DNA from: an uncultured virus (IMG/VR IMGVR_UViG_2541047343_000006) | Lineage: Duplodnaviria; Heunggongvirae; Uroviricota; Caudoviricetes | Virus record (IMG/VR): IMGVR_UViG_2541047343_000006 | Span: 62,001-126,000 of that record | Direction: 5' to 3' (one strand) | Length of the DNA stretch: 64,000 nucleotides | Part shown: positions 21,957 to 57,740 of the stretch, piece by piece | How the letters are laid out: the number at the start of each line of letters is the position of its first letter | How positions within the stretch are numbered: position 1 is the first letter of the stretch | Notes under the pieces: model-generated | What the model was told of the DNA's origin: nothing | Databases searched by the model: none | The model's input: only the letters and a program-made list of their open reading frames with translations | Program-made: the position numbers and the translations under genes

Positions 21957-22844
21957 ATGAATGGTGAAAAACTTATAGAAAATAAAGAATTAAGAGATAG
22001 AAATATAGATAGAGTAGATGTATTGGAACATGTGAAAGAGATATTAACTTTAGCAAATACAGATTTTAGTACAGTAGAACTTGTTTCTGAGTATTATGAA
22101 GTTAAAGAAGCTACAGTTCAAGAATGCATAAGATTAAACAAAGAGGAGCTAAAGAATGATGGACTAAAAAAATATAAGAAAAATGAGATAATATCTATAT
22201 TTGAACGAAATCCAATTAATTTGGAAAACGTAAAAAATGAAAGAACAAAATCAATAGTAACATTTAAAAACAATGAAAGTGTATCTATAAATAATACAGG
22301 ATTAATATTAATACCAAAAAGAGCAATTCTCAGAATAGGTATGTTACTTAGAGATTCAGAAGTTGCTAAAGAAGTTAGAACTAGATTACTAGATATTATA
22401 CACGATGCAGAAGAACAAACTGAAATTGTAAATGATGTAATAGAAGAAATTAGAACTGAACAAAATATAAAAGAAGATATGCTTGAAGCGATAATTTCTG
22501 GCGACCATAATAAATTATCTGTACTACAGACAGAATTAATAGGGTTGAAGAATAAAAGAATATCTCATTTAGAAGATATTATAACTAATTCAGTCACTAT
22601 AACAGAAAGTAAAGCTATTATTAATAAATGTGTTAGGACAATAGCAGTTAAAAAATTTAATTGTATGTTTGGTAAAGCATGGGATGAATTTTATAGATTT
22701 ATTAACTATAAACTTGGCATTAATGTTAGAAATCGAAAAGGTAAAGGATTAGCTAGATTTTCAGATGAAGAAATCTTAAAGATGGAGAAGATAGCGAAAA
22801 GCTGGTTAGAGGAAAATGATATAGATTTTAAATTGGTAATATAA
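21957..22844 (+). CDS. Phage antirepressor-like DNA-binding protein
   Basis: RAILRIGMLLRDSEVAKEVR motif, common in Firmicutes phage regulators. Confidence 0.6.
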   Translation: MNGEKLIENKELRDRNIDRVDVLEHVKEILTLANTDFSTVELVSEYYEVKEATVQECIRLNKEELKNDGLKKYKKNEIISIFERNPINLENVKNERTKSIVTFKNNESVSINNTGLILIPKRAILRIGMLLRDSEVAKEVRTRLLDIIHDAEEQTEIVNDVIEEIRTEQNIKEDMLEAIISGDHNKLSVLQTELIGLKNKRISHLEDIITNSVTITESKAIINKCVRTIAVKKFNCMFGKAWDEFYRFINYKLGINVRNRKGKGLARFSDEEILKMEKIAKSWLEENDIDFKLVI

Positions 22845-22862
22845 TTTAAATTTGTTTTCAAA

Positions 22863-22939
22863 AGGGATATAGCTCAGGTGGTTAGAGCATTCGGTTTATA
22901 CCCGAAAGGTCATAGGTTCGACTCCTATTATTCCTACCA
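22863..22939 (+). tRNA. tRNA-Ile(UAU)
   Basis: Complete cloverleaf; anticodon stem TTCGG/CCGAA with loop TT-TAT-AC; encoded CCA. Confidence 0.9.
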
Positions 22940-22944
22940 AATAT

Positions 22945-23035
22945 GGAGAGGTACTCAAGTGGTAAAGAGGATAGTTTGCTAAACTATTAGGTCAATTAAT
23001 TTGATACGAGGGTTCAAATCCCTTCCTCTCTTCCA
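22945..23035 (+). tRNA. tRNA-Ser(GCU)
   Basis: ATAGT/ACTAT stem with loop TT-GCT-AA, long variable arm, TTCAAAT T loop, CCA. Confidence 0.9.
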
Positions 23036-23090
23036 ATAAAAAAAGTTTGTTATTTTTAAATAATATCTTAATTAAAAGGGAGATGTTTTT

Positions 23091-23708
23091 ATGGTTAAAT
23101 ATAATGTTCATAAAGCTTTAGCAGAAAAGAAGTTATTAGAAGATAAGATAGATAGATGCATTAGTAATTTTAAAATTGTAGGTACTAAAAAAGGCTCTGA
23201 TAAAAATGTATATGAAACAAAAACAAGTGTAGAAGATTTTAATGTAGAAGTTTCAAGTAAATACCAACAAATAGAAGATTTAATATATAATTATAATGCA
23301 TTAGATAAAGCAATTAATATCTCTAATGCTGTAACAAATGTTCAAATTGGTAATAAAAATTATACAGTTTTAGAAGCAATAAAAAGAAAAAATAGTATAG
23401 AATTAGATAAATCCTTGTTGAGACAAATGGTTAGTAACTATGATTGTATGATGTCTGAAGTAAATCGTAGAAATGAAGAAGTACAAAGAAATACAGATAA
23501 AATGTTTGAGGAAAAAGAAAAAAGTGAAGATGGAGCAAAATTTATTTCATTTTATAAAAAACAACAAGAATGGTCTTTAGTAGACCCTTTAAAAGTAAGA
23601 GAGAAAATAGAAAAGTTAAGGGATGAAATAGAAGAATTTGAAAAAGAAGTTGATTTTGCATTGAGTACATCAAATGCACTTACAATTATAGATGTAGATT
23701 TAAAATAG
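23091..23708 (+). CDS. Coiled-coil hypothetical protein
   Basis: 205 aa; motifs HKALAE.KLL..KI, SNA.T.V.IG..YTV.EAI, LVDPL, VDFALS.SNA.T.I. Confidence 0.8.
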   Translation: MVKYNVHKALAEKKLLEDKIDRCISNFKIVGTKKGSDKNVYETKTSVEDFNVEVSSKYQQIEDLIYNYNALDKAINISNAVTNVQIGNKNYTVLEAIKRKNSIELDKSLLRQMVSNYDCMMSEVNRRNEEVQRNTDKMFEEKEKSEDGAKFISFYKKQQEWSLVDPLKVREKIEKLRDEIEEFEKEVDFALSTSNALTIIDVDLK

Positions 23709-23730
23709 TCCTTAATTGGACTATTTTTTA

Positions 23731-24028
23731 ATTTGCAGGTTAGGTGAATAACATAAATTATAAGTTCCCATTGATTTTGGGTTAAAAATCAAACTGCTTA
23801 TATAAAAAGTGATGGGTACATACAAACGAAACGATTGTACTGTATAAAAGAGAACAATGGATATAAAGCTTAAAGTTAAAAATTCAAATGTAAAATCTCA
23901 AGGATAAAAGATTAAATTATTAAAATAGTAAAAATAAAATAAAAAAGTTATAGAAAATCCTTGATAAATGCTAAATGCGTTAACTTATATTAGCTATTGT
24001 TAGCTACAAGGCTGCCTAATTTGCAAAT
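23731..24028 (+). ncRNA. Candidate structured ncRNA with a heptad A-tract core
   Basis: 15-bp closing stem with three G-U pairs, nested helices and eight 7-nt units. Confidence 0.55.
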
Positions 24029-24077
24029 AAATATATTCCCAGTAGAGTTAATAAAATTATAAAAAAGGTGAGAGTAC

Positions 24078-24266
24078 ATGAAAAATAATAAAGGAACAGT
24101 ATTAGAAAAATGTGAAATAATAAAACAAGAAAATAATACATATAAAATTATAGAACATTTGAAAGATGGAGACCATGAAGTATTACTTAGTGATGTTTTG
24201 GATAAGTATACTGGTGATACAGATTTAAACATAACGATAAGATTAAGTGAAACAATAGTCCAATAA
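24078..24266 (+). CDS. Small phage protein (SPbeta YonK-like by position)
   Basis: IIEHLKDG...LSDVLDKYTG..LNITI; precedes the phosphoesterase. Confidence 0.55.
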   Translation: MKNNKGTVLEKCEIIKQENNTYKIIEHLKDGDHEVLLSDVLDKYTGDTDLNITIRLSETIVQ

Positions 24267-24342
24267 ATCAATATTGGACTATTTATTTTTTACTTAATAC
24301 ATTGATAATGATATTTATGTGATAAATAGGGAGATATTAAAT

Positions 24343-25536
24343 ATGGAAGACATATTGAAGAAAAAAGAAGATGAGTCACTAGTTGACTATAGGATTAGAA
24401 TACGATTGGCAAAGGTTAATAAAGAGATAGATTTGGATTGGGGAGAGATAGTTGAACTATTAGGGTTAGAATGTTCTCCAGACCATTGTAGGAAGGTTTC
24501 TTATGGGTTGAAAGAGGCTTTTGATTATCTTAATTCTAAGATACAGAATAATTCTACCCAAGAAGAGGTTGATAAAATAAATGAGAAAATATTAGAGTTG
24601 AAAAAGATAAAGGTACAGTTATCTGATGAAAGGTCGTTAGTAAATAAGAAAATAAGAGAATATTCAAGGATAGATAATATAATTGATTTATTTAATAATA
24701 AAATAGATGATATATCACTTCATAAGCCGTTTCTAAGTGATTCTAGTTACAAATGCTATGAATCTTCAAATCAAGAGGCTATTATGCTAATTTCAGACAT
24801 ACATTATGGATTAGAGACTATTAATGCATTTAATAGATATAATTCAGAAATATTCAAGATAAGGCTACAATATTTAAAAGATAAAATTATTGAATATAGT
24901 AAGTTACATAGGGTTAAGAGACTACATGTAATGCTACTTGGAGATTTAATCTCTGGCCACATACATAATTCTATAAGATTAGAAAATAGAGAAAATATAG
25001 TTGAACAAATTATAGAAGTATCTGAAATACTTAGTGAATTTATATATGAATTATCTAAAGAAATTGATAAAATCATTGTTTATTCAGCAGGTGGAAACCA
25101 TGATAGGATTCTTCCTGGAAAAGATGAAAATTTAGATAAAGATAATTTTACACTATTAATAGATGAATATATAAAGCTAAGAATTAAAAGTTTAGATAAT
25201 GTAATATTTCAAGAAAATATATATGATAATGACATAATAGTAGCTAAAATATGTGGAAATACATGTTTCGCAGTACATGGAGATAAAGATAAAATGTCTA
25301 CAGCAATTCCTAAATTAACCTCTCTTATAAAATTAATTCCTGATTATATTTTCATGGCTCATCTACACAATTGTAAAGAAGATAGTTATGGAGAAAGTGA
25401 AATTATTGTAAATGGAAGTTTTTCTGGAACAGATACATATGCTAAGAATCTAAGATTAAGTTCATATGCAATGCAAAAATTAATGATATTTAATGATGAT
25501 GGAAGATTATGTACTTATAATATTAAGCTTAAATAG
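24343..25536 (+). CDS. Calcineurin-like metallophosphoesterase
   Basis: SDIHYG, LGDLISG, GNHD, HGD and AHLH. Confidence 0.85.
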   Translation: MEDILKKKEDESLVDYRIRIRLAKVNKEIDLDWGEIVELLGLECSPDHCRKVSYGLKEAFDYLNSKIQNNSTQEEVDKINEKILELKKIKVQLSDERSLVNKKIREYSRIDNIIDLFNNKIDDISLHKPFLSDSSYKCYESSNQEAIMLISDIHYGLETINAFNRYNSEIFKIRLQYLKDKIIEYSKLHRVKRLHVMLLGDLISGHIHNSIRLENRENIVEQIIEVSEILSEFIYELSKEIDKIIVYSAGGNHDRILPGKDENLDKDNFTLLIDEYIKLRIKSLDNVIFQENIYDNDIIVAKICGNTCFAVHGDKDKMSTAIPKLTSLIKLIPDYIFMAHLHNCKEDSYGESEIIVNGSFSGTDTYAKNLRLSSYAMQKLMIFNDDGRLCTYNIKLK

Positions 25537-34175: not shown

Positions 34176-35160
34176 TTATATTAATAATTTTAAAAAAAGA
34201 ATTGGACTAGGATGTTCAACACCTAAAAAAAAAAGAATATTACAACTAAGATTAAGTTTTAAGAAATATTTAAAAGAAACACCAACCTGTATTGAAGTTC
34301 CTATAACTGATATAGATGAAATTTGTATAACCGAAGATACTAAAAAAGCTGTAGTTTCAATTAATGATATAACTAATAATGATAAAAGAGCTTTAGATGA
34401 AAAAAATCTATTAGTTGAATCTGATTTAAATGTAGATGTGGGTTGCTATCTTTTCTATGATAATTGTTATTGGCTAACTATATTTAAAGAACATAAAGAA
34501 ATGGATACATATAAACATTTCATAATAAAAAGATGCAATCAATTCTTTAATTATAAATATAAAGGTCAGATGTATAAAATCCCTATAGCTGTTGAAAATT
34601 TAACCTTATATTCTGATGGTATGGCAGATAATAAATATACTTCTATCTCAGATACAAAAAGACAACTTTATTTTGGAAGTAATCCTGTCACTAAAACTAT
34701 AGATATTGACACTAGAATAATGTTAACTGGTAAAACTGTATTTAGAGTTACTAGTATTAATGACTTTGAGTATAATGGCAGAGAAACAGGAGCAGATGGT
34801 CTTATTAAAGCTATTTGTTTACAAGATGCATTGATTTCAAAAGATGATACAGTAAATAATATAGCTTGGAATGATCTATCTGAAAATGATAGTGTAATTA
34901 TTCCTTTCAGTAAGATTATAGGGGATGGATTTATTAATCTAGGTGAAGAAAATGAATACAGAATAGACCATTCTCAAGGAGTTAAATGGCTCTTAGACAA
35001 GCAATACAGATATTGTGATATAATTTATCAAGATGAGAAAAGATGTGTCATACAGGCTAATACATTGGCTAAGTATTCTGGCTTAGAAGCCTTGCTATTG
35101 GCTAAAGATAAAGATACAAATGAAATAATAGATACTAAAAAAATAACACTAAGGGGGTAG
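34168..35160 (+). CDS. Putative head closure/neck protein
   Basis: Position; YWL...IKRCN. Confidence 0.5.
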   Translation: MSSYINNFKKRIGLGCSTPKKKRILQLRLSFKKYLKETPTCIEVPITDIDEICITEDTKKAVVSINDITNNDKRALDEKNLLVESDLNVDVGCYLFYDNCYWLTIFKEHKEMDTYKHFIIKRCNQFFNYKYKGQMYKIPIAVENLTLYSDGMADNKYTSISDTKRQLYFGSNPVTKTIDIDTRIMLTGKTVFRVTSINDFEYNGRETGADGLIKAICLQDALISKDDTVNNIAWNDLSENDSVIIPFSKIIGDGFINLGEENEYRIDHSQGVKWLLDKQYRYCDIIYQDEKRCVIQANTLAKYSGLEALLLAKDKDTNEIIDTKKITLRG

Positions 35161-35174
35161 ATATATGGGTCTAT

Positions 35175-35669
35175 ATGGCTTTCCCTAACAAGATGATAAG
35201 TAATATAGGAACAACTCTAATGTCAAATCAAGACTTCGCTAAATTTATGATTTATAATAATGAATCACAAAAAGATATTTTATCCATGCCTGATATAAAA
35301 AATCCAGTTAAAGAGCTTAGAAACAAGAAAGTGTTTTTTAATAGAAGAGTAGAAAAAGTATTAAAAGAAGCAGATGTTTCTGTTTACATAACATTATTTA
35401 AATATAATCTTTATAAAGATAGAAGTAGAATAATAAAAACTACTAATATTGAAATTGGTGTAGTATGCCATGATGAATGCCAAGATACTTTTAATGGACT
35501 AAGAGATGCCGCATTAGTATGTTGTATAGTGGACACAATCACTGAAAATGAGGAGATAGCAGGTATAGGAAAAATAAAATTAGAGAGCTGTTCCCCCATG
35601 TTTAATTTAGATACAAGTTATAATGGATTTAGCATAGTTGTATCATCTGAAAGTTTTGGTGATATGTAA
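35175..35669 (+). CDS. Putative tail terminator/neck protein
   Basis: Position; GIGK motif. Confidence 0.45.
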   Translation: MAFPNKMISNIGTTLMSNQDFAKFMIYNNESQKDILSMPDIKNPVKELRNKKVFFNRRVEKVLKEADVSVYITLFKYNLYKDRSRIIKTTNIEIGVVCHDECQDTFNGLRDAALVCCIVDTITENEEIAGIGKIKLESCSPMFNLDTSYNGFSIVVSSESFGDM

Positions 35670-49583: not shown

Positions 49584-52500
49584 ATGGTTGAAGAGTTTAA
49601 AATTAAAACCAGTATTGAGCTTGATGACAAAGATGCTAGAGAAAAAATAGAGAAATTAAAAAATAGTGGTCAAGATAAACCTATTAAATTAAATTTGAAA
49701 ATAGGTGAATTAGATAAGTTATCACAACAAGCAGAGCAATTAAAAGGGATATTCAATAAAGCCTTTAAGATTGATAATACTGCTTTGAGCAACTTAAAGC
49801 AAATTGAATCTACTATGAAAGAAATAAATAAACTAAGTAGAAGAAGTCAAGAGAGCTTACTTGGTGGTGGCTCTGGAAACACAGGAAATATAAATAATGA
49901 ACAGCAAGATTTAATAAGACAATATAAAGAAATCTCAAATGTTGTATCTAGACTTCAAAATCAGATTAGAACAGGTCTAGGAGATAGTTCAATTGAAAGA
50001 ACAACAGAACAAATTGAAAGATTAAAAAGACAATTAGATTCAGTGTATGCACAAATGAATTCATCATCTCAAGCTAGAATGGATATGTTTGATGCTTCAA
50101 GAGCAACAAGAGATTTAGCTGATATGAATAGAAATCTTTCAAGAATAGAAGATATGGCAACACAAGCATCTGCTAGGCTTAATGGATTAGGCGATAATAT
50201 AGATACAGATAAAGTAAATAGACTTAGGAATGAGTTACAAGAATTAAAACAGACAGCTAGTAGAAATATAGATTTAAATCTTGATGTAGGTAATATAGTT
50301 AATAGAATACAAGAGATAAATCAAGAAGTTAGAAATCTAGAAAGAGTTGATAGCTTAAGGTCTAATTTCAGCAGAATAGAAGATTCTATTAGACAGGCAT
50401 TTGGGAATGAGAGAGTTGAAGCTTTTAGACGTTCTTTAGAGCAACTTCAAGGTTCGGCAGGAAATCTAAATGGTGATTTTAACAATATATTTGATAGATT
50501 AACAAGAGAAATGAGAGATGCTAGACAAGAAGCTGAAAGATTAAATAATACAGTTTCAAGAGGTGGAGGATTTTTTAATGATTTCTATTCATCTGTAGCA
50601 TCTTATTCTATTGGAGATATGTTGGGCGATGCTTTGACTGATGGAATTAGGTCTATGAAAGATGTTATATTAGAGCTTGATAGCTCTATGACTGACCTTA
50701 AAAAGGTTGCAGAACCAACAGATATTGATAGTACATCTGAGTTAGATAGAATAAGAGAAAAAGCAATACAAACAGCTAAAGATGTAGGAATGAGTGCATC
50801 ACAAGTTCAAGAATCAATAGCATCTTCTTTACAAGCAGGAATTGGAGGCATGCAAGAAAGTATTGCTGCTGCAAGACAATCAATGATACTTGCCAATGTA
50901 GGTGATATGGATGTTGAAGGTGCATCTTCGGCAGTAAACACAATAATCAATGGATTTAGAATAGAACCACTTAAAGAAATGCAAGTACAAGTCGGGAATA
51001 CAACAAAGAAAACAACAGAATTAACTGCTGCAATGGATATGCTAAATTGTTTGGCGTGTTAGATAGAAATATCTAATATTATGAGGGGGCAAAATCGGTG
51101 AAGACTGAGATGTTACCACCGAGGTAAATTAAAGAATTAAAAGACTTTAATCACCGTAACGCATAGGAAATGAACCTATGCTATTTTTATGTTTAAAATA
51201 GTATAGAATATAATTTTCCCACGAGTGTCCTCCATCTTAACAAGTAATCTTGAAGATGAAAATATATGCTGAACTTACATGAATAAGAAATGTAAGAACT
51301 ACAAGATAAAAAGCTTGTAGGATAACAATTTGAAACTATGCAGGGAATAATTATGCAATTGGAACAGCAGGTGTTGCCGAAGCGATTAATTTTAGTCGCC
51401 TTATATAGTAATATATAATGATAAACTCCTTTAACTGCTGGAAACTCCTGTTAGGCTTTTAGTACTAAGTGTAATAATCTAAAAGATAGGGACAATCAGC
51501 AGCCAAGACTCAATAGAGTAAGGTTCAACGACTAGGTTATAAACCGTACATATCAAGCTATTGGATATGGAAATGGGGAGCATCCTTATAGGATGAAGAT
51601 ATAGTCTCGTCTGTATGGAAACATATAGCAGTTCATAAGAGAACGGATTAAGTGTAGCGAACTTAATTGAAGATAAACGGAAACGTGGAGGTAGTGTACT
51701 TCATGAGTATGGTGTCAGTTTAGGTGACACAGTGGGTATGATAACAGCAACAAATGAAGCGATACAAAATCCAGAAAAAGTAGGTAATGGTTTAAAAAGT
51801 GTCGCAATAAATTTAGCAGGTATGAAAGTTTCAGCTGATGATGGTACACTTTCTTTAAATAAAACCGCAAAAGGTTTAAAGGAAATAGCTGGAATAACTA
51901 TTTATAAAAATAAAGATACTGGTGAATTGAAGAATATGGTTCAACTCTTAGATGAGTTGAAAGGCAAATGGGGAGAACTCAGAGAGGATGAACAAAAAGG
52001 ATTAGCTGAAGCAATAGCAGGTAAGCAACAAGCAGCTATATTCCAATCCTTAATGGGTAATTATGAGACTTTTAAAGAAATAAGAAGTGAATTTTCACAA
52101 GGGTTACAATTTGGTTCGGCTGAGGCTGAAAACAAACAATATTTAGATAGTCTTGCAGGGCGTTTAAATGAGTTGAAAACAATATGGGCAGATATATTCC
52201 AAACTGTATTTAATTCAAATACAACATATGGATTTTTAGATGGTTTAATATCTGTATCTAATGGAATAAATAGTGTTATAAAAACATTAGAAAGATTAAA
52301 ATTAACAACACCAGCATTAATAGGAAGTTTTATGACTTTAAAAACGTTATTCTCTGGTATGGGAATGACAAATGGTACTAGAAATGTGGCTAGACTTATA
52401 AATCCTTTAAATATGATAGGAACTCCTATTAAAGCTACAACTACAATACTACAATCATTTAGACATGCAGTAATGGCAGCAAATGTAGCTGGTGCTAATG

Positions 52501-55500
52501 GAGCAAATGTAATTACTAGAGCAGGAACAGGTTTGGGAGCATTAAGACAAAGTTTATCTAGGACTTCTATTGGTATTGGAACATTAAATATAGCGACAAG
52601 TTTGTTAAACGGGGCTATGATAGGTTTGGCTACTTTTGCTATAACTAAAGGTATACAATGGATAGATGATACTATTCACAAGTATGAAAAATTAGCAGAA
52701 AAACAAAAAGAAGTTATTGGAACTACTACAAGCGAGATAAGCTCCTTGCAACAAAAGAAAAAGAGTTTAGAAGGTATATCAGAAGAGTACAATAATTTAG
52801 CTAGTAAGACCGAAAAGACTGCTGATGAAACTGAAAGATTTAGCGAACTTAAACAACAAATTGCAGATATAGCACCAGAATTAGTATTGGGTGTAGATGA
52901 GAATAATGACCCTATTCTAAATATGAGTGGTAACTTAGATGAGGTCATTAATAAATTAAGAAAGGCTATAGAAGAAAAAAATAAACTTTTAAAGTCTCAA
53001 GAAGATGAACTTGCAATAACTACATCAAAGACTGCACCAGATACAAAAAAAGACCTTGATAAAGAAAAGAAAAAACTTGATAAAGTTCTTGAAGATGAGC
53101 ATAATTTATTTAAAAATGCTTTAAGTAAATCTAATTTTAAAGAACAAACAGAAGCATTAAAAAAGGCTTACAATCAACAAGAAACAGATTTTGCAGAACA
53201 TCATCAAAAACTTCTTACTGAATATGAAAAATATAATGAAGAAGAAGAGGTAATGCAGAAAAGGGCGATTAATAGATTAACTAATTCTGATATATCTAAA
53301 ACATATGCTAAACAATCTGAACAAAAGAAAAGTAAAATGAATGAGCTTGTAGCTAATATGAATTGGCATGACTATAGTGTAGGACAACAGAATAGCATTA
53401 TAAGTGCTTTTGATAAAATAAGTGAGTCAATTCCTGTTGAAAAATTAGACCAGTGGAATAAGAAGATAACTGATGCTAATATAAATTATCAGGCATCCGG
53501 TGATATGAATCAATATACCAAAGAATTACAAGGGTTGGCGAATGAACTTCAAAAGCTAAGTGGTGGAAGTATAAGTGCTGATACTTGGCTTATTGGATTA
53601 CAACAAGGTTTTTCTGGATTAGACTTAGCCAGTATGAAATTACATACTTTCTTGAAAAGTTATGGTTCATCTTTAGCTGAACTTGAAAACAAAGATAGTT
53701 TTGCAATAAAGCTTAAAAACCAATTTGATGCATTAAATGATTTTTCTCAAGATTTAGAAGTTAATGGTAAAGTAAATATAAAACTGCTTGAAGATATACA
53801 AAGTGGAGAAGCTGGTCAAGATTTACCACAACAACTAAAAGATATAATAAATGGATTCACATTTGGAGAAGATTCACAAATAGAAGCTCAGGCTCAATTA
53901 GCCCTACAAGTAACAACTACGTTGCAAAACGAAGGTCAATTATCTAATGATGTTGTTAAACAATTAAATGACTTATTTAAGGGTAAATTACAATTAACAG
54001 ATGACATTCTTAAAAATGGACTAAAAATCAGTGACAAGTTACCTGCATTACCAGGAAATATGGTTCAAGCATTAAATGAGCAATTTGCAAATGCTTTTAC
54101 AGGAGACAATGCCCCTGAAATCACTCCTAGTGTCAATGGAGAAAAAGCTAAAAAAGAATTAAAAGAATTAGAAAAATTCAAAAAAGACACTTTTAAATCA
54201 GATAAAATTGTGACTGAAATTAATAATAAAGGACTAGATTTCGCAAAAAAAGACTTGAGTGTATTAAAAGAACAGTTGGATAGATTTAAAAATGAAGATA
54301 CAAAGTTGTCTTTTACTACAGATTGTGCAGATGCTTTTAAAGATGTAAATTCTTTAGAGGAAGCTAGAAAAAAAATATCTGCTCCAATGAGTCTAAAATA
54401 TGATATAGATGTAGATAAAAAAGGATTGACTGAAGCAAAAAAAGTCTATGATATTTTACCTGATAATCTCAAAAAAAAGATAGAAACAGAAGTAATAGGT
54501 ATAGATAAATTAGACACATTACAAAACTTAATAGATAAAGCTCCAAATAAAAAAGAAACTATATTTGAAATAATCAATAAAAATCCAGATAAACTAAATG
54601 AGATAGATGAAATTCTTAATAATGTTCCAAATGATAAAAAGGAAGCTGTTATTGATTTTATAGTAAACAATTTAGACCAACTTGAAAAAGCTAAAAATGT
54701 ACAAGAATTTATAAACAATTTACCTCCAGAAATAAAAAAACAACTTGGAATAGAAGTTGAAGGAGGAGAAAATGCAGAGAAAACTGTTAATACAGTTCAA
54801 AATGCAGATGGAACTAAAGCTGACCTTTTAGTAAATGCAGAAGTAAATGGAGAATCACAAGTAGTTGAATGCATAGAAACATTAGATAAGAATGGGAATA
54901 AAACATACACTCCTAATTTAAATCCTCAAGTTAATAATAGTGAAAAAGTTGTTCAGTGCATGAGAATATTAGATGAATATGGAAATGAATCTTATATTCC
55001 AATTGTAAGTCCTCAAGTTACCAATGAAGAAGGACTTAACAGTACTAAACAAAAAATGGATGAGTTAGATAATAAAACAGTAACTCCAACTGTACAAATA
55101 AAGACAGAAGGAGAAACTGAAGTTGAACAGGCAACCAATTTTATAGAAAATACAAATCCAACTAAGGTTATTGAGTTATCCATAAACAACTCTGGTAAAG
55201 ATGAAATTGACAATACAAAACAAAAGTTAGATGAACTTAATAATGAAAAAGCCACTCCTACTATTGAAGCTACAGGTGCAGAACAAGCATCTGAACAGTT
55301 AAATCAATTATCACAAAAAGCACAAGAAATTGGGCAAGGTAATTATCATATAAATGTTAGTACTTCAACTGAACAAGGGGCTAAGAATATTTCAGGACTT
55401 ATAGCTAGAGTAAAACAATTCTTAGCTTTGAAAGTATCTACACTTGTATTTAGAACTGAAACTGCACAAGCAGCAAAAAATGTATCAGGTTTGTTAGCCA

Positions 55501-57740
55501 AAGTACAAAGTTATGTTAGCCGATATGGTGGAAAAACTATAAAGACTACATTTAGTGCATTAACTGCAACTGCTGCAAAGAACATATCAGGGCTTATTAG
55601 GAAAATAGAGTCATTTAAATCAAACTATGCAGGAAAAACATTCACTACTACATTTGTAACTAATAAAGTAACCAATAGTTCTGGTGGTGGAGGTGGAGGA
55701 AATAGTTCAGATAAGACCAATAAAACTGAACGTACCTCTGTTACTAATGGAACTCCAATTCCAGCTAATCTATCCCAACCTAGAACATCAGAACCAGCAC
55801 CAATAAGTGACGAAACTCCTGTAACAAAACCATCCTTATTCTCAAGAGCAGTATCAAGAGCCACATCAGCTTTTAAAGTAATCAAACCTAAAGTTACAAT
55901 AAACAATGACACAATAGACTCATCTGTAAAATATAGCATAGAATTATTTAAAGAGTTAGAAAATGCTATATCAGCAGTAACAAATGAAATAGCTCTATTA
56001 GACAAAAAAATGGAACATGCTACAGGTGATGAGAAGATTAAATACTTACAGGAGCAAAATAAATTATTTGCTCAACAAAAAGATTTAATAAAACAACAAC
56101 AAGATGGATATAAAGCTGAAAGTAACAGACTTAAAAATAGATTAAAAGAAAAGAAAATGGGCTTTAAGTTTGATGATACTGGAAATCTAACTAACTATGA
56201 AGAAAAGTTAATATCAATAGAAAAAGAATTAGACAAATTAAATTCAAAGTCTGGTGACAAAGAAAATAAAAAAGATGAATCCAGAAAAAAAGAGTTGGAA
56301 GAAACTAAGAAAGTCCTTGAAGAATATATTAAAGTTACATTTACAGAACTGCCTAAATGTGAGCAAGAATGGGAAGAATACAATAATAAAATTAAAGAAC
56401 ACAATGAGGAATTAAGGAAAGCACAAGAAGAAATGTGGAAACTTAATAAGAATTCCACATGGACTTCTATGTACAAAGATGTAGAGCAAGTAAATAATGA
56501 AATAGCAATGATAGATGTATTACTTAAAAATGCTACAGGTGATGAGCAGATAGAGTTGTTAGAAAAGAAAAAAGAGTTAATGGCCAAGAAGGCTAAAGAA
56601 CTATCTGAAACAACAGCATATCTTCAAGAAACACAAAAAGAGCTACAACAAAAGCTACAAGGCTATGGATTTACATTTAGAGATAATGGCGATATAACTA
56701 ACTTCATTCAACATAAAAATCAACTTAAAAAGAACATGACTGATGAAGAATTTAAAAGAATGGAAGATGCAGCAGAGGGATATTTGGATTTATTAATAAA
56801 TAAAATACCTGATGCTAATAAGGAAATTGCTGAATCTAAGAAAGAAATTGAAGCATTAAATAAAGAAATTCAAGATGCTTATAAAGACCAACTCAAAGAA
56901 GCTCAAAGTCTACAAGAGAAAATTAGAGACATGTATAAAAAAGAACTTGAAGAGAGACTTAAAGAAATAGACAAGGAAACTAAAGCTAAAATTGATTCTC
57001 TTAAAAAGCAACAAGATGCTTACAATGATTCAAGAAAAGAAGCCAAATATAAAGATGATTATGAAGAACAACAAGATGTAATAAGTGATTTAGAAAAACA
57101 AATAGCAATAGCTGAAAGAGATAGTTCTTTAAGTGGTCAGAAGAAACTTAAAGATTTACAAAAACAATTAAAAGAAGAACAGAAGAAATTACAGGATTTA
57201 GTACAAGACCATGTAGACGACCAAGTCAATGATATGTATGATAAGGAGTCTGACAGACTACAAGAAGAAGCAGATAAATTAAAAGAAGAGTTAGAGAAAA
57301 AATACTCAGATGAAAATTTAGTTGATTTAATTAATGAAGCAATCAGTTCTGGTAAATTTGTAGGTCTTGATGGAGAAGTTGAGAAACTTCAAGATGCTAT
57401 CATTGAATACATAAACAAATATGAAGATGGCATGTTGGCAATGGGTTCTGTTACTAAGCAAGAATGGCTTGATACACTAAAAGAAGGTAAAGAGACATTA
57501 GAAGATATTAATGACATATTAGATGAATTAGATTTAAGTAAGTTTGCTATGCCTAATTATAATCCTCCTTCAAATTCTCGTTCAAGAAGTGCATTTCCAA
57601 CATCTTCAGTTAATTTTAATTCACCATTCTTTGTTGTTCAAGGAAATGTAACTAAGGATACTATGAAAGACTTGGAAAAATTTGGTAGAGATTTAGAGAA
57701 TAGAGTATATAGAAAAATAGTAGAAAATATTAAATCATAG
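49584..57740 (+). CDS. Tape measure protein, spliced: join(49584..51043,51333..51386,51680..57740), 2524 aa
   Basis: Removing both introns gives an in-frame MDMLNYAGNNYAIGTAGVAEAMKRGGSVLHEYGVSLGDTVGMITATNEAIQNPEKVGNGLKS, a TP901-type TMP core. Confidence 0.85.
51044..51332 (+). ncRNA. Group I intron 1 (289 nt, no ORF)
   Basis: P1 with U-G at the splice site; P4 TCGGT/ACCGA; P7 GCATA(51161)/TATGC(51265); terminal G. Confidence 0.85.
51387..51679 (+). ncRNA. Group I intron 2 (293 nt, no ORF)
   Basis: P AACTGCTGGAAAC, Q AATCAGCAG, R GTTCAACGACTA, S AAGATATAGTC; P1 GCGAU/GUCGC; terminal G. Confidence 0.9.

What the first reader, a model, noticed from the sequence alone, without database searches (positions are those of the whole stretch)
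23091..24028. Coiled-coil protein plus a ~300-nt structured RNA with an eight-unit heptad A-tract: candidate new RNP system
Seen: just after the 205-aa gene and its hairpin, ATTTGCAGGTTAGGT (23731-23745) pairs with GCCTAATTTGCAAAT (24014-24028). All three deviations are G-U pairs valid only on the plus-strand RNA. Nested helices: TATAAGTT/AACTTATA, CCCAT/ATGGG, TTGATTTT/AAAATCAA, GTACA/TGTAC, TCAAGGAT/ATCCTTGA, TAGCTA/TAGCTA. The core 23865-23920 has strict 7-nt phasing: AAAGCTT AAAGTTA AAAATTC AAATGTA AAATCTC AAGGATA AAAGATT AAATTAT. Inference: an oligomeric protein binds one heptad per subunit, as an RNA-templated ring or filament or a type III TA-like pair. I cannot match it to a named RNA family.
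Basis: partly seen in the sequence, partly recalled or inferred. Interest (0 to 1): 0.85.

Follow-up and report, generated by a model that had tools for sequence, protein, structure and literature searches.

The report
Heptad-repeat phage RNA with partner protein
The gap after this 205-residue phage gene encodes a real, evolutionarily conserved folded RNA that always travels with that protein in the tRNA clusters of many large phages (including T5), so it looks like an unstudied RNA-protein machine.

Summary
Window 23731-24028 (+) is a structured RNA gene. It is a divergent member of a widespread family.

- **Structure.** The closing stem, a long-range helix and a 3' helix covary across 63 non-redundant copies: 84% of cells paired against 59% in shuffles, 0 of 500 shuffles as high.
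- **Membership.** A covariance model built without any C. difficile-phage sequence finds the window copy at E 2e-6. It is the only significant hit in 64 kb.
- **Heptads.** The 7-nt periodicity is family-wide: lag 7 is best in 58 of 63 copies.
- **Partner protein.** The RNA lies directly after the 205-aa protein family gene in 128 of 133 loci outside the C. difficile group. In the reverse test, 27 of 28 RNA hits had the gene upstream.
- **Context.** The pair rides in tRNA clusters of large phages and in cyanobacterial tRNA arrays. A copy is in phage T5.
- **Rfam.** In relatives the 5' domain matches RAGATH-27. The window copy does not.

Protein binding, oligomerisation and function remain inferred, and no expression data could be obtained. 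This scan had not noted the element before.

The parts
22863..23035 (+). tRNA-Ile(UAU) 22863-22939 and tRNA-Ser(GCU) 22945-23035. This is the tRNA context typical of the module.
   Evidence: ARAGORN and Rfam tRNA. 106 of 153 homologous loci have tRNA genes within about 3 kb.
23091..23708 (+). Gene for the 205-aa partner protein. PHROG labels the family 'tail fiber protein', which is probably a mislabel.
   Evidence: ORF. phrog_1491 at E 1.9e-72 and no Pfam match. AF2 model with pLDDT 89.8: helical bundle plus a small sheet. 3401 representative relatives.
23702..23727 (+). Terminator-like hairpin followed by a T run, between the gene and the RNA.
   Evidence: Consensus scan. Most relatives have no such hairpin here; their RNA starts 4-60 nt after the stop codon.
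23731..24028 (+). The structured RNA, 298 nt, measured from the outer ends of closing stem P1.
23731..23745 (+). P1 5' arm. It pairs with 24014-24028: 15 bp with three G.U pairs.
   Evidence: Family: 61 of 66 distinct arm pairs are fully complementary over 12 nt, and 65 of 66 hold at least one G.U. 14 of 15 P1 pairs show changes on both sides.
23746..23758 (+). Junction motif GAAUAACAUAAAU. The family consensus is CGAAAACYNNAAAC.
   Evidence: Alignments A4 and A6.
23759..23766 (+). 5' strand of the long-range helix. It pairs with 23982-23989 and is a pseudoknot relative to P4.
   Evidence: Own partner gives at least 7 contiguous pairs in 46 of 63 copies, against 565 of 3906 cross-locus pairings. 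7 of 7 pairs show changes on both sides, but only 64.6% of cells are paired on the MAFFT alignment.
23767..23792 (+). Candidate H-type pseudoknot. CCC 23767-69 pairs with GGG 23779-81, which lies in the loop of hairpin P2 (23771-78 / 23785-92).
   Evidence: the repeat finder I16. The same arrangement with other complementary triplets occurs in about a dozen relatives: ACCU/AGGU, CCG/CGG, GACCC/GGGUC, UCCUG/CAGGA, ACCG/CGGU. No shuffle control was run.
23793..23861 (+). Variable region with a local hairpin at about 23815-23844. In some relatives tRNA genes are nested at this site.
   Evidence: Nested tRNAs in L121, L165 and L160/L166.
23862..23955 (+). Heptad array with units U-Y-A-A-A/G-G-Y. 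The strict block is 23865-23920, followed by a looser A-rich block.
   Evidence: The units are conserved in position in A6. Blastn similarity to distant loci is about 70% identity, E down to 3e-13.
23938..24029 (+). 3' domain matched by covariance model R1. It includes P4 (CCUUG 23959-63 with CAAGG 24007-11) and the P1 3' arm (24014-28).
   Evidence: 42.4 bits, E 2.3e-6, the only significant hit in the window. P4 is paired in 63 of 63 sequences, with four pair types at two positions.
24078..24266 (+). 62-aa gene downstream (phrog_21503). It is a neighbour, not part of the conserved module.
   Evidence: No other neighbouring gene recurs in more than 6 of 62 loci.

Best explanation
Window 23731-24028 (+) is a gene for a roughly 300-nt structured non-coding RNA. 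Together with the 205-aa gene just upstream it forms a conserved two-part module.

**Shown**
- The RNA belongs to a large family of 230-470 nt with a shared architecture:
  - a 12-21 bp closing stem, flanked inside by CGAAA on the 5' side and GGCUG on the 3' side;
  - a variable 5' domain. In many members this is Rfam RAGATH-27; here it is a small hairpin with a candidate pseudoknot;
  - an insertion site that sometimes holds tRNAs;
  - an array of about 7-12 heptads of the form U-Y-A-A-A/G-G-Y;
  - a 3' domain with a covarying helix and a long-range pseudoknot helix back to the 5' junction.
- The RNA and the protein gene are found together, on the same strand and adjacent, in the tRNA clusters of large phages: phiCD211-like, T5-like, Bastille-like Bacillus phages and Lactococcus 949-like phages. 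They also occur in horizontally spread cyanobacterial tRNA arrays.

**Inferred**
- The RNA is made with, or next to, the gene and the tRNAs, and folds into a compact core.
- The fold leaves the A-rich heptad tract exposed as a periodic landing pad. Copies of the partner protein assemble on it, giving an RNA-protein particle.
- The particle serves the phage's tRNA or translation programme, for example by handling or protecting phage tRNAs or by countering tRNA-directed host defences.

**My odds**
- Real structured RNA: about 0.97.
- Functional coupling to the protein: about 0.9.
- Physical RNA-protein complex: about 0.55.
- Heptads are the protein-binding units: about 0.4.
- tRNA- or translation-related role: about 0.35.
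For: **Structure**
- On 63 non-redundant full-length copies, 84.0% of cells form standard pairs, against 59.4% in shuffles (0 of 500 as high) and 32-45% with slid partners.
- The covariation score is 0.567, against 0.171 in shuffles and 0.10-0.13 with slid partners. 25 of 27 pairs change on both sides.
- P4 is paired in 62 of 62 sequences, with up to four pair types.
- 65 of 66 distinct P1 stems need G.U pairs, so they are complete only on the + strand RNA.

**Membership**
- R1 was built from 62 loci with no C. difficile-phage sequence. It hits the window at 42.4 bits, E 2.3e-6.
- It also hits Bacillus phage Deep Blue and Lactococcus phage phiL47, which were not in the training set.

**Coupling to the protein**
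- R1 lies downstream of the gene, on the same strand, in 97 of 100 and 31 of 33 protein-selected loci. 62 of these were training sequences. The five misses end 30-347 nt after the stop codon.
- R1 finds nothing in 2 of 2 related C. difficile phages that lack the gene.
- A DNA pattern taken from the RNA alone gave 28 R1 hits, and 27 of them have the protein gene 239-399 nt upstream (one outlier at 1274 nt). Three more pattern loci with the protein score E 1.6e-4 to 1e-3 with filters off.
- Five whole genomes each hold exactly one copy, at the protein locus.
- No other neighbouring gene is shared by more than 6 of 62 loci.

**Heptads**
- Lag 7 is the best autocorrelation in 58 of 63 copies. The units align column by column from cyanobacteria to the C. 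difficile phage.

**Context**
- tRNA genes lie within about 3 kb in 106 of 153 loci.
- The protein is found in 737 named phage records.
- The T5 copy has a 21-bp P1.

**Precedent**
- Another RAGATH motif, RAGATH-18, proved to be the guide RNA of the adjacent TnpB gene (PMC11061315; title and abstract seen in the listing).
Against: - No binding, oligomer or expression evidence was obtained.
- In the window a terminator-like hairpin separates the gene from the RNA. No convincing promoter was found for the RNA: the scan found 15 promoter-like sites against 15.4 expected.
- Thermodynamic folding gives the heptad zone only a slightly higher unpaired probability: 0.57 against 0.45 for the whole window RNA, and 0.42 against 0.37 in the family.
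- The protein shows no known RNA-binding domain. Its invariant residues are mostly Ser, Asn, Thr and hydrophobic, not basic.
- One locus, L256, keeps a 5'-truncated RNA without the gene.
- The long-range helix is only 64.6% paired on the automatic alignment.
- The pseudoknot rests on a script without a control.
- The T5-like and Pseudomonas phage copies are called by inspection. R1 scores them 16.7 bits (E 0.12) and nothing.
Confidence: 0.55

Rival explanations
1. The RNA works without binding the co-encoded protein, like the large phage-associated RNAs found next to tRNAs. The heptad tract would either bind a host factor (ribosomal protein S1, Hfq, the ribosome or a nuclease) or mediate RNA-RNA multimerisation. 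The protein would act in the same pathway, but separately.
For: - GOLLD and ROOL lie near tRNAs in prophages (PMC5737381, passages read) and form RNA-only complexes (PMC12286853, abstract start seen in the listing).
- The RNA is better conserved at nucleotide level (about 70% identity) than the protein (about 35%) between distant loci.
- The protein has no recognisable RNA-binding domain.
Against: - Adjacency on the same strand is near-obligate across Firmicute phages, proteobacterial phages and cyanobacteria, while every other neighbour varies.
- That pattern is typical of physically interacting RNA-protein pairs.
Confidence: 0.2
2. The element acts in cis. It would be a 3' UTR that stabilises or autoregulates the protein's mRNA, or a processing scaffold for the polycistronic tRNA transcript, rather than a free RNA.
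For: - In most relatives the RNA starts 4-60 nt after the stop codon, with no terminator between.
- tRNAs follow 40-90 nt after it, or are nested within it.
Against: - A 230-470 nt multi-domain fold with pseudoknots and an invariant 3' helix is far more than known 3' stabilisers need.
- In the window a terminator-like hairpin lies between the gene and the RNA.
- Rfam lists RAGATH-27, the 5' domain in relatives, as Gene; sRNA, not Cis-reg.
Confidence: 0.12
3. The pair is a type III toxin-antitoxin-like system, in which a repetitive RNA neutralises a toxic protein.
For:
Against: - The repeats are 7 nt and lie inside a closed fold. The RNA is downstream of the gene.
- No PADLOC family matches the protein.
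- No PDB fold match reaches E <= 0.001 (0 of 388 rows); the best is 3kdq, a protein of unknown function.
- The module sits in lytic phages such as T5.
Confidence: 0.03
4. It is a DNA-level element: iterons, a partition or packaging site, a terminal repeat, or a promoter with upstream A-tracts.
For: - The repeats are A-rich and sit a few kilobases upstream of the terminase gene.
- TTGATA within ATCCTTGATAAA resembles a -35 box.
Against: - TCCTTG covaries with CAAGG as a helix (CCCUG/CAGGG, CCAUG/CAUGG, CCUAG/CUAGG and others).
- The P1 stems need G.U pairs, which become mismatches on the other strand.
- The 378-bp terminal repeat of phiCD211 (PMC5557969, passages read) is a different sequence at the ends of the record.
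- A 7-bp period does not match the DNA helical repeat.
Confidence: 0.02

Closest known systems
RAGATH-27 RNA (Rfam RF03100; candidate sRNA from the Weinberg et al. 2017 survey, function unknown)
   Same: In relatives the 86-nt model matches the first part of this RNA. The match starts 7-32 nt after the protein's stop codon and covers the 5' arm of P1 (L102 3634-3721 at 91 bits; six further loci at 38-67 bits).
   Different: - The Rfam model holds only the 5' domain. It lacks the closing stem's partner, the heptad array and the 3' domain.
- The window copy has a different, smaller 5' domain and does not match, with no hit at E <= 10.
- Neither the main text of PMC5737381 nor any paper in the searched library (0 papers hold 'RAGATH-27') describes it. 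The paper's supplement could not be read and may say more.
GOLLD and ROOL large ornate RNAs
   Same: They are large structured RNAs of unknown function in phages and prophages, often beside tRNA genes (PMC5737381, passages read).
   Different: - There is no sequence or model match.
- Those RNAs are 580-800 nt and form RNA-only homo-oligomers (PMC12286853, abstract start seen).
- I know of no dedicated partner protein for them. This RNA has a strictly linked protein gene and a 7-nt repeat tract.
RAGATH-18-derived guide RNAs of IS607 TnpB
   Same: A RAGATH motif that always sits next to one protein gene turned out to be that protein's RNA partner (PMC11061315, title and abstract in the listing).
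   Different: There is no nuclease-like fold or transposon context here, and no guide segment is evident.
Oligomeric repeat-reading RNA-binding proteins (TRAP with 11 G/UAG repeats; HutP with UAG every 7 nt). This comparison is recalled, not tested.
   Same: They read short single-stranded repeats at a fixed spacing, one subunit per repeat. The 7-nt spacing equals that of HutP sites.
   Different: The protein fold is unrelated (a helical bundle). The repeat sequence differs, and here the repeats sit inside a closed, pseudoknotted RNA rather than in an mRNA leader.
[quoted passage not shown]
   Same: These are the genomic home of the module. The L-array paper notes hypothetical protein genes embedded in L-operons, including that of Calothrix desertica PCC 7102, which corresponds to locus L170 (PMC8421152, section 22 read).
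   Different: The sections I read describe neither this protein family nor any RNA beside it.
ToxIN-type (type III) toxin-antitoxin pairs. This comparison is recalled.
   Same: A repetitive RNA encoded beside a protein on mobile DNA.
   Different: See the membership test: unit length, gene order and protein family all differ.

Membership tests
RAGATH-27 (RF03100) | A match to the Rfam covariance model at or above the gathering score of 76.1 bits. | tested here: not met
   The window region 23600-24200 gives no RF03100 match even at E <= 10. The relative L102 scores 91.3 bits.
Long heptad-repeat RNA family (defined here; it contains RAGATH-27 as one type of 5' domain) | A 3' domain with the P4 helix, scored by model R1, which was built without the window's lineage. 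| tested here: met
   42.4 bits, E 2.3e-6 at 23938-24029 on the + strand.
Long heptad-repeat RNA family | A closing stem P1 whose 5' arm is followed by (C/U)GAAA and whose 3' arm is preceded by GGCUG. | tested here: met
   The stem is 15 bp. The 3' side reads GGCUG. The 5' side reads GUGAAU, a variant of CGAAAA.
Long heptad-repeat RNA family | A tandem 7-nt repeat array upstream of the 3' domain. | tested here: met
Long heptad-repeat RNA family | A long-range helix between the 5' junction and the 3' domain loop. | tested here: met
   8 bp, 23759-66 with 23982-89, in the family register.
Long heptad-repeat RNA family | A position directly downstream of the ~205-aa protein family gene, on the same strand. 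| tested here: met
   The RNA starts 23 nt after the stop codon.
Type III toxin-antitoxin (ToxIN-like) | Tandem repeats of about 34-36 nt upstream of an endoribonuclease toxin gene (definition recalled). | tested here: not met
   The unit is 7 nt and the RNA lies downstream. There is no PADLOC match. No PDB fold match reaches E <= 0.001; the best is 3kdq, a protein of unknown function.
GOLLD / ROOL | A match to the Rfam models. | tested here: not met
   No such match in the window or in the 30 related loci scanned.
Tail fibre protein (the PHROG 1491 label) | A place in a tail gene module and a fibre-like fold. | tested here: not met
   The gene lies among tRNAs, upstream of the terminase, and also in cyanobacterial tRNA arrays. 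The model is a helical bundle. The BFVD matches are all uncharacterised proteins.
Phage terminal repeat or packaging site | Identity with the mapped 378-bp direct terminal repeat of phiCD211. | tested here: not met
   The repeat is at 1-378 of the record and at its last 378 bases. It has no similarity to the region.
DIP1984 family (NF038048 / PDB 3kdq) | A score above the curated cut-off of 70 bits. | tested here: not met
   16.4 bits, E 0.008. Foldseek gives E 0.01 and TM 0.41-0.52. This is at most a distant resemblance.

The most novel reading that the evidence does not exclude
The pair is a previously unrecognised and very widespread phage ribonucleoprotein. The pseudoknotted RNA core displays about 7-12 heptad units, and these template a ring or short filament of the 205-aa protein. 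The particle is carried in the tRNA clusters of hundreds of large phages, T5 included, and of mobile cyanobacterial tRNA arrays. It acts on tRNAs or the translation machinery, for example to shield or mature phage tRNAs or to disarm tRNA-cleaving host defences. RAGATH-27 would then be only a fragment of this machine's RNA.
Probability: 0.35. Interest if true: 0.9.

Novelty: new variant of a known kind. Interest (0 to 1): 0.75.

Why it matters
- Large phages carry tRNA clusters whose non-tRNA content is almost unexplored.
- Here one protein family has 3401 representatives at the 50% identity level and occurs in 737 named phage records. It proves to be tied to a 230-470 nt covarying RNA that databases hold only as an 86-nt fragment, or not at all.
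- The pair occurs in phage T5 and its relatives on E. coli K-12. That makes an RNA-protein system of unknown function directly testable in a standard laboratory phage and host.
- It would correct a widespread 'tail fiber protein' mislabel.
- It would extend an Rfam family to its true size.
- It gives a candidate function-bearing element inside the horizontally spreading tRNA arrays of cyanobacteria.
- The strict 7-nt repeat tract inside a closed fold is unusual for bacterial RNAs and suggests a periodic protein-RNA assembly.

Tried and rejected
1. **Terminal repeat or packaging site.** Rejected. The 378-bp repeat of phiCD211 is elsewhere and is unrelated.
2. **Promoter with a -35 box at TTGATA and upstream A-tracts.** I considered this. 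It was rejected once TCCTTG was seen to covary with CAAGG.
3. **MITE or repeated mobile element.** Rejected. There is a single copy in the 134-kb virus record and one copy per genome in five genomes.
4. **Decayed tRNA or known RNA family in the window.** Nothing was found.
5. **Expression.**
   - 8 runs on record as RNA, among the 17 rows that hold part of the stretch, share sampled words with it.
7. **First generic test of the long-range helix.** It did not discriminate: own mean 8.2 against cross mean 7.5. It was replaced by a register-restricted test.
8. **My first two motif-finding scripts.** They had offset errors and found almost nothing. They were superseded.
9. **Survey of 150 Clostridia genomes with R1.** It found only the starting genome, so it says nothing about RNA copies without the protein.
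10. **aragorn on the excised RNAs.** It called nested tRNAs only in L121, although whole-locus scans also place tRNA calls inside the RNA in L165 and L160/L166.
11. **Defence and curated family libraries.** PADLOC and NCBIfam gave nothing above cut-off, and the ESM Atlas nearest clusters carry no common Pfam family and are all labelled 'hypothetical protein'.
12. **Literature.**
    - No paper in the searched library holds 'RAGATH-27'.
    - Searches on RAGATH with tRNA and prophage, on T5 stable RNA, and on T5 RNA-seq found nothing on this element.
    - The supplement of PMC5737381 could not be read.
Full report
**Setting**

The window is part of a 134-kb virus record. Over 23000-24400 it is 95-98.6% identical to the large Clostridioides difficile phages of the phiCD211 / phiCDIF1296T group.

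The finding lies between two tRNA genes and the packaging genes:
- tRNA-Ile(UAU) at 22863-22939 and tRNA-Ser(GCU) at 22945-23035;
- a 205-aa ORF at 23091-23708;
- a 350-nt gap;
- a 62-aa ORF, a metallophosphatase-type exonuclease and the terminase.

**Check of the observation**

- The + strand folds with the proposed 15-bp closing stem. Its z-score is -3.78, and 0 of 100 shuffles fold as well.
- The - strand is weaker: z -2.08, with 5 of 100 shuffles as good.
- The run of eight AA-initiated 7-mers is reached by 7 of 5000 dinucleotide shuffles at period 7, and by 66 of 5000 at any period from 4 to 12.
- It is the only period-7 run of that length in the window on either strand. One run of 8 occurs at period 11.
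- Rfam finds nothing there, even at E <= 10.

Taken alone this is suggestive, not conclusive.

**Ordinary explanations that were excluded**
- *Terminal repeat.* phiCD211 has 378-bp direct terminal repeats (PMC5557969, passages read). In the deposited record these are positions 1-378 and the last 378 bases, and they have no similarity to this region.
- *Repeated element.* The element is single-copy in its own record.
- *Promoter.* I briefly read the near-invariant ATCCTTGATAAA as a -35 box with upstream A-tracts. Comparative data refuted that, as shown under "The RNA is conserved and covaries".

**The protein family and its context**

The protein has no Pfam match. It matches phrog_1491, labelled 'tail fiber protein', at E 1.9e-72.

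Its relatives are numerous and of uniform length, about 204-220 aa:
- 49 clusters in a word-indexed search;
- 3401 representatives at E <= 1e-3 in an exhaustive profile search, 1602 of them at E <= 1e-30;
- 737 named phage records.

I fetched 153 loci around relatives. Twenty are near-identical C. difficile-phage copies and 133 are distant, at 26-41% protein identity.

In 106 of the 153 loci aragorn finds tRNA genes within about 3 kb. In nearly all of these the nearest tRNA on either side lies on the gene's strand. They include cyanobacterial chromosomes, where the gene is embedded in long tRNA arrays. Such L-arrays are known to spread horizontally and to carry embedded hypothetical genes (PMC8421152, section 22 and passages read). 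I saw no mention of this family or of an adjacent RNA in what I read.

No other protein-coding neighbour recurs in more than 6 of 62 non-redundant loci.

**The RNA is conserved and covaries**

Downstream of the gene, nearly every locus has 300-600 nt without an ORF before the next gene or tRNA. These stretches are alignable between loci whose proteins share only about 35% identity.

The window's heptad core aligns at about 70% identity (E down to 3e-13) with distant loci. Those loci show the same tandem AAAGNUY units followed by AAAAUCCUUGAUAAA.

*The P4 helix.* Anchoring on that motif shows that CCUUG pairs with a downstream CAAGG and changes in step with it: CCCUG/CAGGG, CCAUG/CAUGG, CCUAG/CUAGG, CCUCG/CGAGG, CCACG/CGUGG. 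On 62 non-redundant sequences this helix is paired in 62 of 62, with four pair types at two positions.

*The closing stem P1.*
The 5' arm lies just after the stop codon and is followed by CGAAAAC. The 3' arm is preceded by GGCUG.
- A strict pattern finds this in 107 of 154 loci.
- 61 of 66 distinct arm pairs are complementary over 12 of 12 positions.
- 65 of 66 contain G.U pairs, so the stems are complete only on the + strand RNA.

*Formal count.* On a full-length alignment of 63 sequences I counted 27 pairs (P1, P4 and a long-range helix).

| Measure | Observed | Shuffles | Slid partners |
|---|---|---|---|
| Cells forming standard pairs | 84.0% | 59.4% (0 of 500 as high) | 32-45% |
| Covariation score | 0.567 | 0.171 | 0.10-0.13 |

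25 of the 27 pairs change on both sides.

- *Closing stem:* supported.
- *TATAAGTT/AACTTATA (23759-66 / 23982-89):* supported. In the family register the own partner gives at least 7 contiguous pairs in 46 of 63 copies, against 565 of 3906 (14.5%) cross-locus pairings. On the automatic alignment only 64.6% of cells pair. Relative to P4 this helix is a pseudoknot.
- *TTGATTTT/AAAATCAA:* supported as a hairpin. About a dozen relatives with the same small 5' domain share it.
- *CCCAT/ATGGG:* probably replaced. The three or four bases before the hairpin are complementary to its loop, with different sequences in different members. That suggests an H-type pseudoknot. No control was run, so it is a candidate only.
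- *TCAAGGAT/ATCCTTGA:* the wrong partner choice.
- *The remaining two helices:* local and untested.

**Heptads**

In 58 of 63 non-redundant RNAs the best autocorrelation lag in the zone upstream of the 3' domain is 7. Chains of U-N-A-A units at 6-8 nt spacing have a median of 7 and a range of 1-11. None of 1260 shuffles exceeds 5.

In the full-length alignment the units line up column by column from cyanobacteria to the C. difficile phage.

Thermodynamic folding gives this zone only a slightly higher unpaired probability than the rest. Its single-strandedness is therefore an inference.

**Membership of the window copy**

Covariance model R1 (91 positions) was built from the 3' domains of 62 loci, none from C. 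difficile phages. It hits the window once, at 23938-24029 on the + strand, with 42.4 bits and E 2.3e-6. The next hit has E 2.1.

**Coupling to the protein**

*From protein to RNA*
- R1 lies downstream of the gene on the same strand in 97 of 100 and 31 of 33 distant loci. 62 of these are its own training sequences.
- The five misses (L080, L133, L148, L182, L188) have only 30-347 nt of contig after the stop codon.
- Two related C. difficile phages lack the tRNAs, the gene and the RNA as one block. The homology resumes at about 24025-24053, right at the RNA's 3' end.

*From RNA to protein*
- A DNA pattern taken from the P4 helix alone returned 80 fetched loci.
- 28 of them pass R1 at E <= 1e-3. 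27 of those have the protein gene upstream on the same strand.
- Three more loci with the gene score E 1.6e-4 to 1e-3 with filters off.
- The one exception, L256, is a 5'-truncated remnant.
- This test is limited to the CCUUG/CAAGG variant.

*Whole genomes*
- Five whole genomes each hold one copy, at the protein locus.

**Relation to Rfam**

In L102 the stretch beginning 7 nt after the stop codon matches RAGATH-27 (RF03100) at 91.3 bits; the gathering score is 76.1. In 6 of 10 further loci the same place scores 38.5-67.1 bits.

The match begins within the 5' arm of P1. So the catalogued 86-nt motif is the 5' domain of a much longer RNA whose closing partner lies 230-470 nt downstream.

The window copy has another, smaller 5' domain.

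No paper in the searched library holds the term 'RAGATH-27'. The source paper's main text does not mention it, and its supplement could not be read.

**Named phages**

All four inspected phages have an unannotated 400-560 nt gap after the gene.

| Phage | R1 result | Other evidence |
|---|---|---|
| Bacillus phage Deep Blue | 51.2 bits, E 1.1e-8 | |
| Lactococcus phage phiL47 | 37.7 bits, E 6.4e-6 | |
| T5-like phiLLS | 16.7 bits, E 0.12 | P1 with CGAAA / GGCUG flanks, P4 and heptads by inspection |
| Pseudomonas phiPsa374 | no match on the gene's strand (a 13-bit partial match, E 0.68, lies on the opposite strand) | the same features by inspection |

The phiLLS stretch is 80-100% identical in 440 T5-like records, including T5 itself. 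In T5:
- the protein is on the strand opposite to the annotated T5p083 (E 1.7e-46);
- the RNA has a 21-bp P1 at AY692264.1 complement 34935..35291.

**The protein**

The AlphaFold model has mean pLDDT 89.8. It is a helical bundle with a small three-part sheet formed by the N-terminus, residues 83-92 and the C-terminus.
- The best solved match is 3kdq (DIP1984, function unknown), with Foldseek E 0.01.
- NCBIfam DIP1984_fam scores 16.4 bits, against a cut-off of 70.
- Viral structure matches are all uncharacterised proteins of large phages.
- PADLOC finds no match, and the ESM Atlas nearest clusters carry no common Pfam family and are all labelled 'hypothetical protein'.
- The 'tail fiber' label has no support.

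**Interpretation**

*Shown:* a conserved, covarying, strand-specific RNA with a positionally conserved heptad array, strictly linked to one protein family, in tRNA clusters of mobile DNA.

*Inferred:* the two form a particle in which the heptads are periodic binding units, with a role in tRNA or translation biology.

Reasons for the inference:
- The strict linkage, set against otherwise variable neighbours, is the signature of known RNA-protein pairs. Another RAGATH motif proved to be the guide RNA of its neighbouring TnpB (PMC11061315, seen in the listing).
- The tRNA context and the nested tRNAs point towards tRNA biology. L-arrays are induced under translational stress (PMC8421152, passages read).

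None of this shows binding or function. Expression and self-association could not be tested here.

**Earlier notes of this scan**

Two notes on heptad-repeat spacers between tRNA genes in other genomes are thematically close but concern different sequences.

Noticed in passing
window 51378-51628: A group I intron (RF00028, 103 bits) lies between the 492-aa ORF (49584-51062) and the 2002-aa ORF (51732-57740). It may split a large phage gene.
   Followed up: no
window 22863-22939: The phage tRNA-Ile has the anticodon UAU, which reads AUA. This fits a phage of 25% G+C supplying a decoder for a codon common in its own genes.
   Followed up: no
window 23702-23727 and 24254-24283: Two terminator-like hairpins share the same stem core (AUAGUCC / GGACUAU). 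One ends the 205-aa gene and the other ends the 62-aa gene.
   Followed up: no
L319 (AY692264.1, phage T5 st0) 942-1739: T5p083 is annotated on the strand opposite to the conserved protein family gene (+ strand, 966-1595, E 1.7e-46). It is probably a wrong-strand call. The RNA region carries only 'putative promoter' features.
   Followed up: partly
L121 2810-3279; L165 455-866; L160 3694-3968: tRNA genes, or a tRNA-like segment, are nested inside the P1-enclosed RNA, between the 5' domain and the heptads. The RNA may therefore be cut into two pieces by tRNA processing.
   Followed up: partly
L256 (IMG/VR contig), RNA 3' domain at 1486-1579 on the - strand: This copy keeps the heptads and the 3' domain but lacks the 5' domain and the protein gene. 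It looks like a recombined remnant.
   Followed up: partly
L190 and L189 (phages pCD1602_4 and ES-S-0173-01) against window ~22380-24053: The two tRNAs, the 205-aa gene and the RNA are present or absent as one block between otherwise related C. difficile phages.
   Followed up: partly
L070 515-625: A 'drum' RNA (RF02958, 72 bits) lies in the same phage tRNA cluster as the module, so these clusters hold several structured RNAs.
   Followed up: no
A6 columns 27/761 and 20/768: Two positions of P1 are G.U in most members: 55 of 63 and 38 of 63. They may be recognition or processing sites.
   Followed up: no
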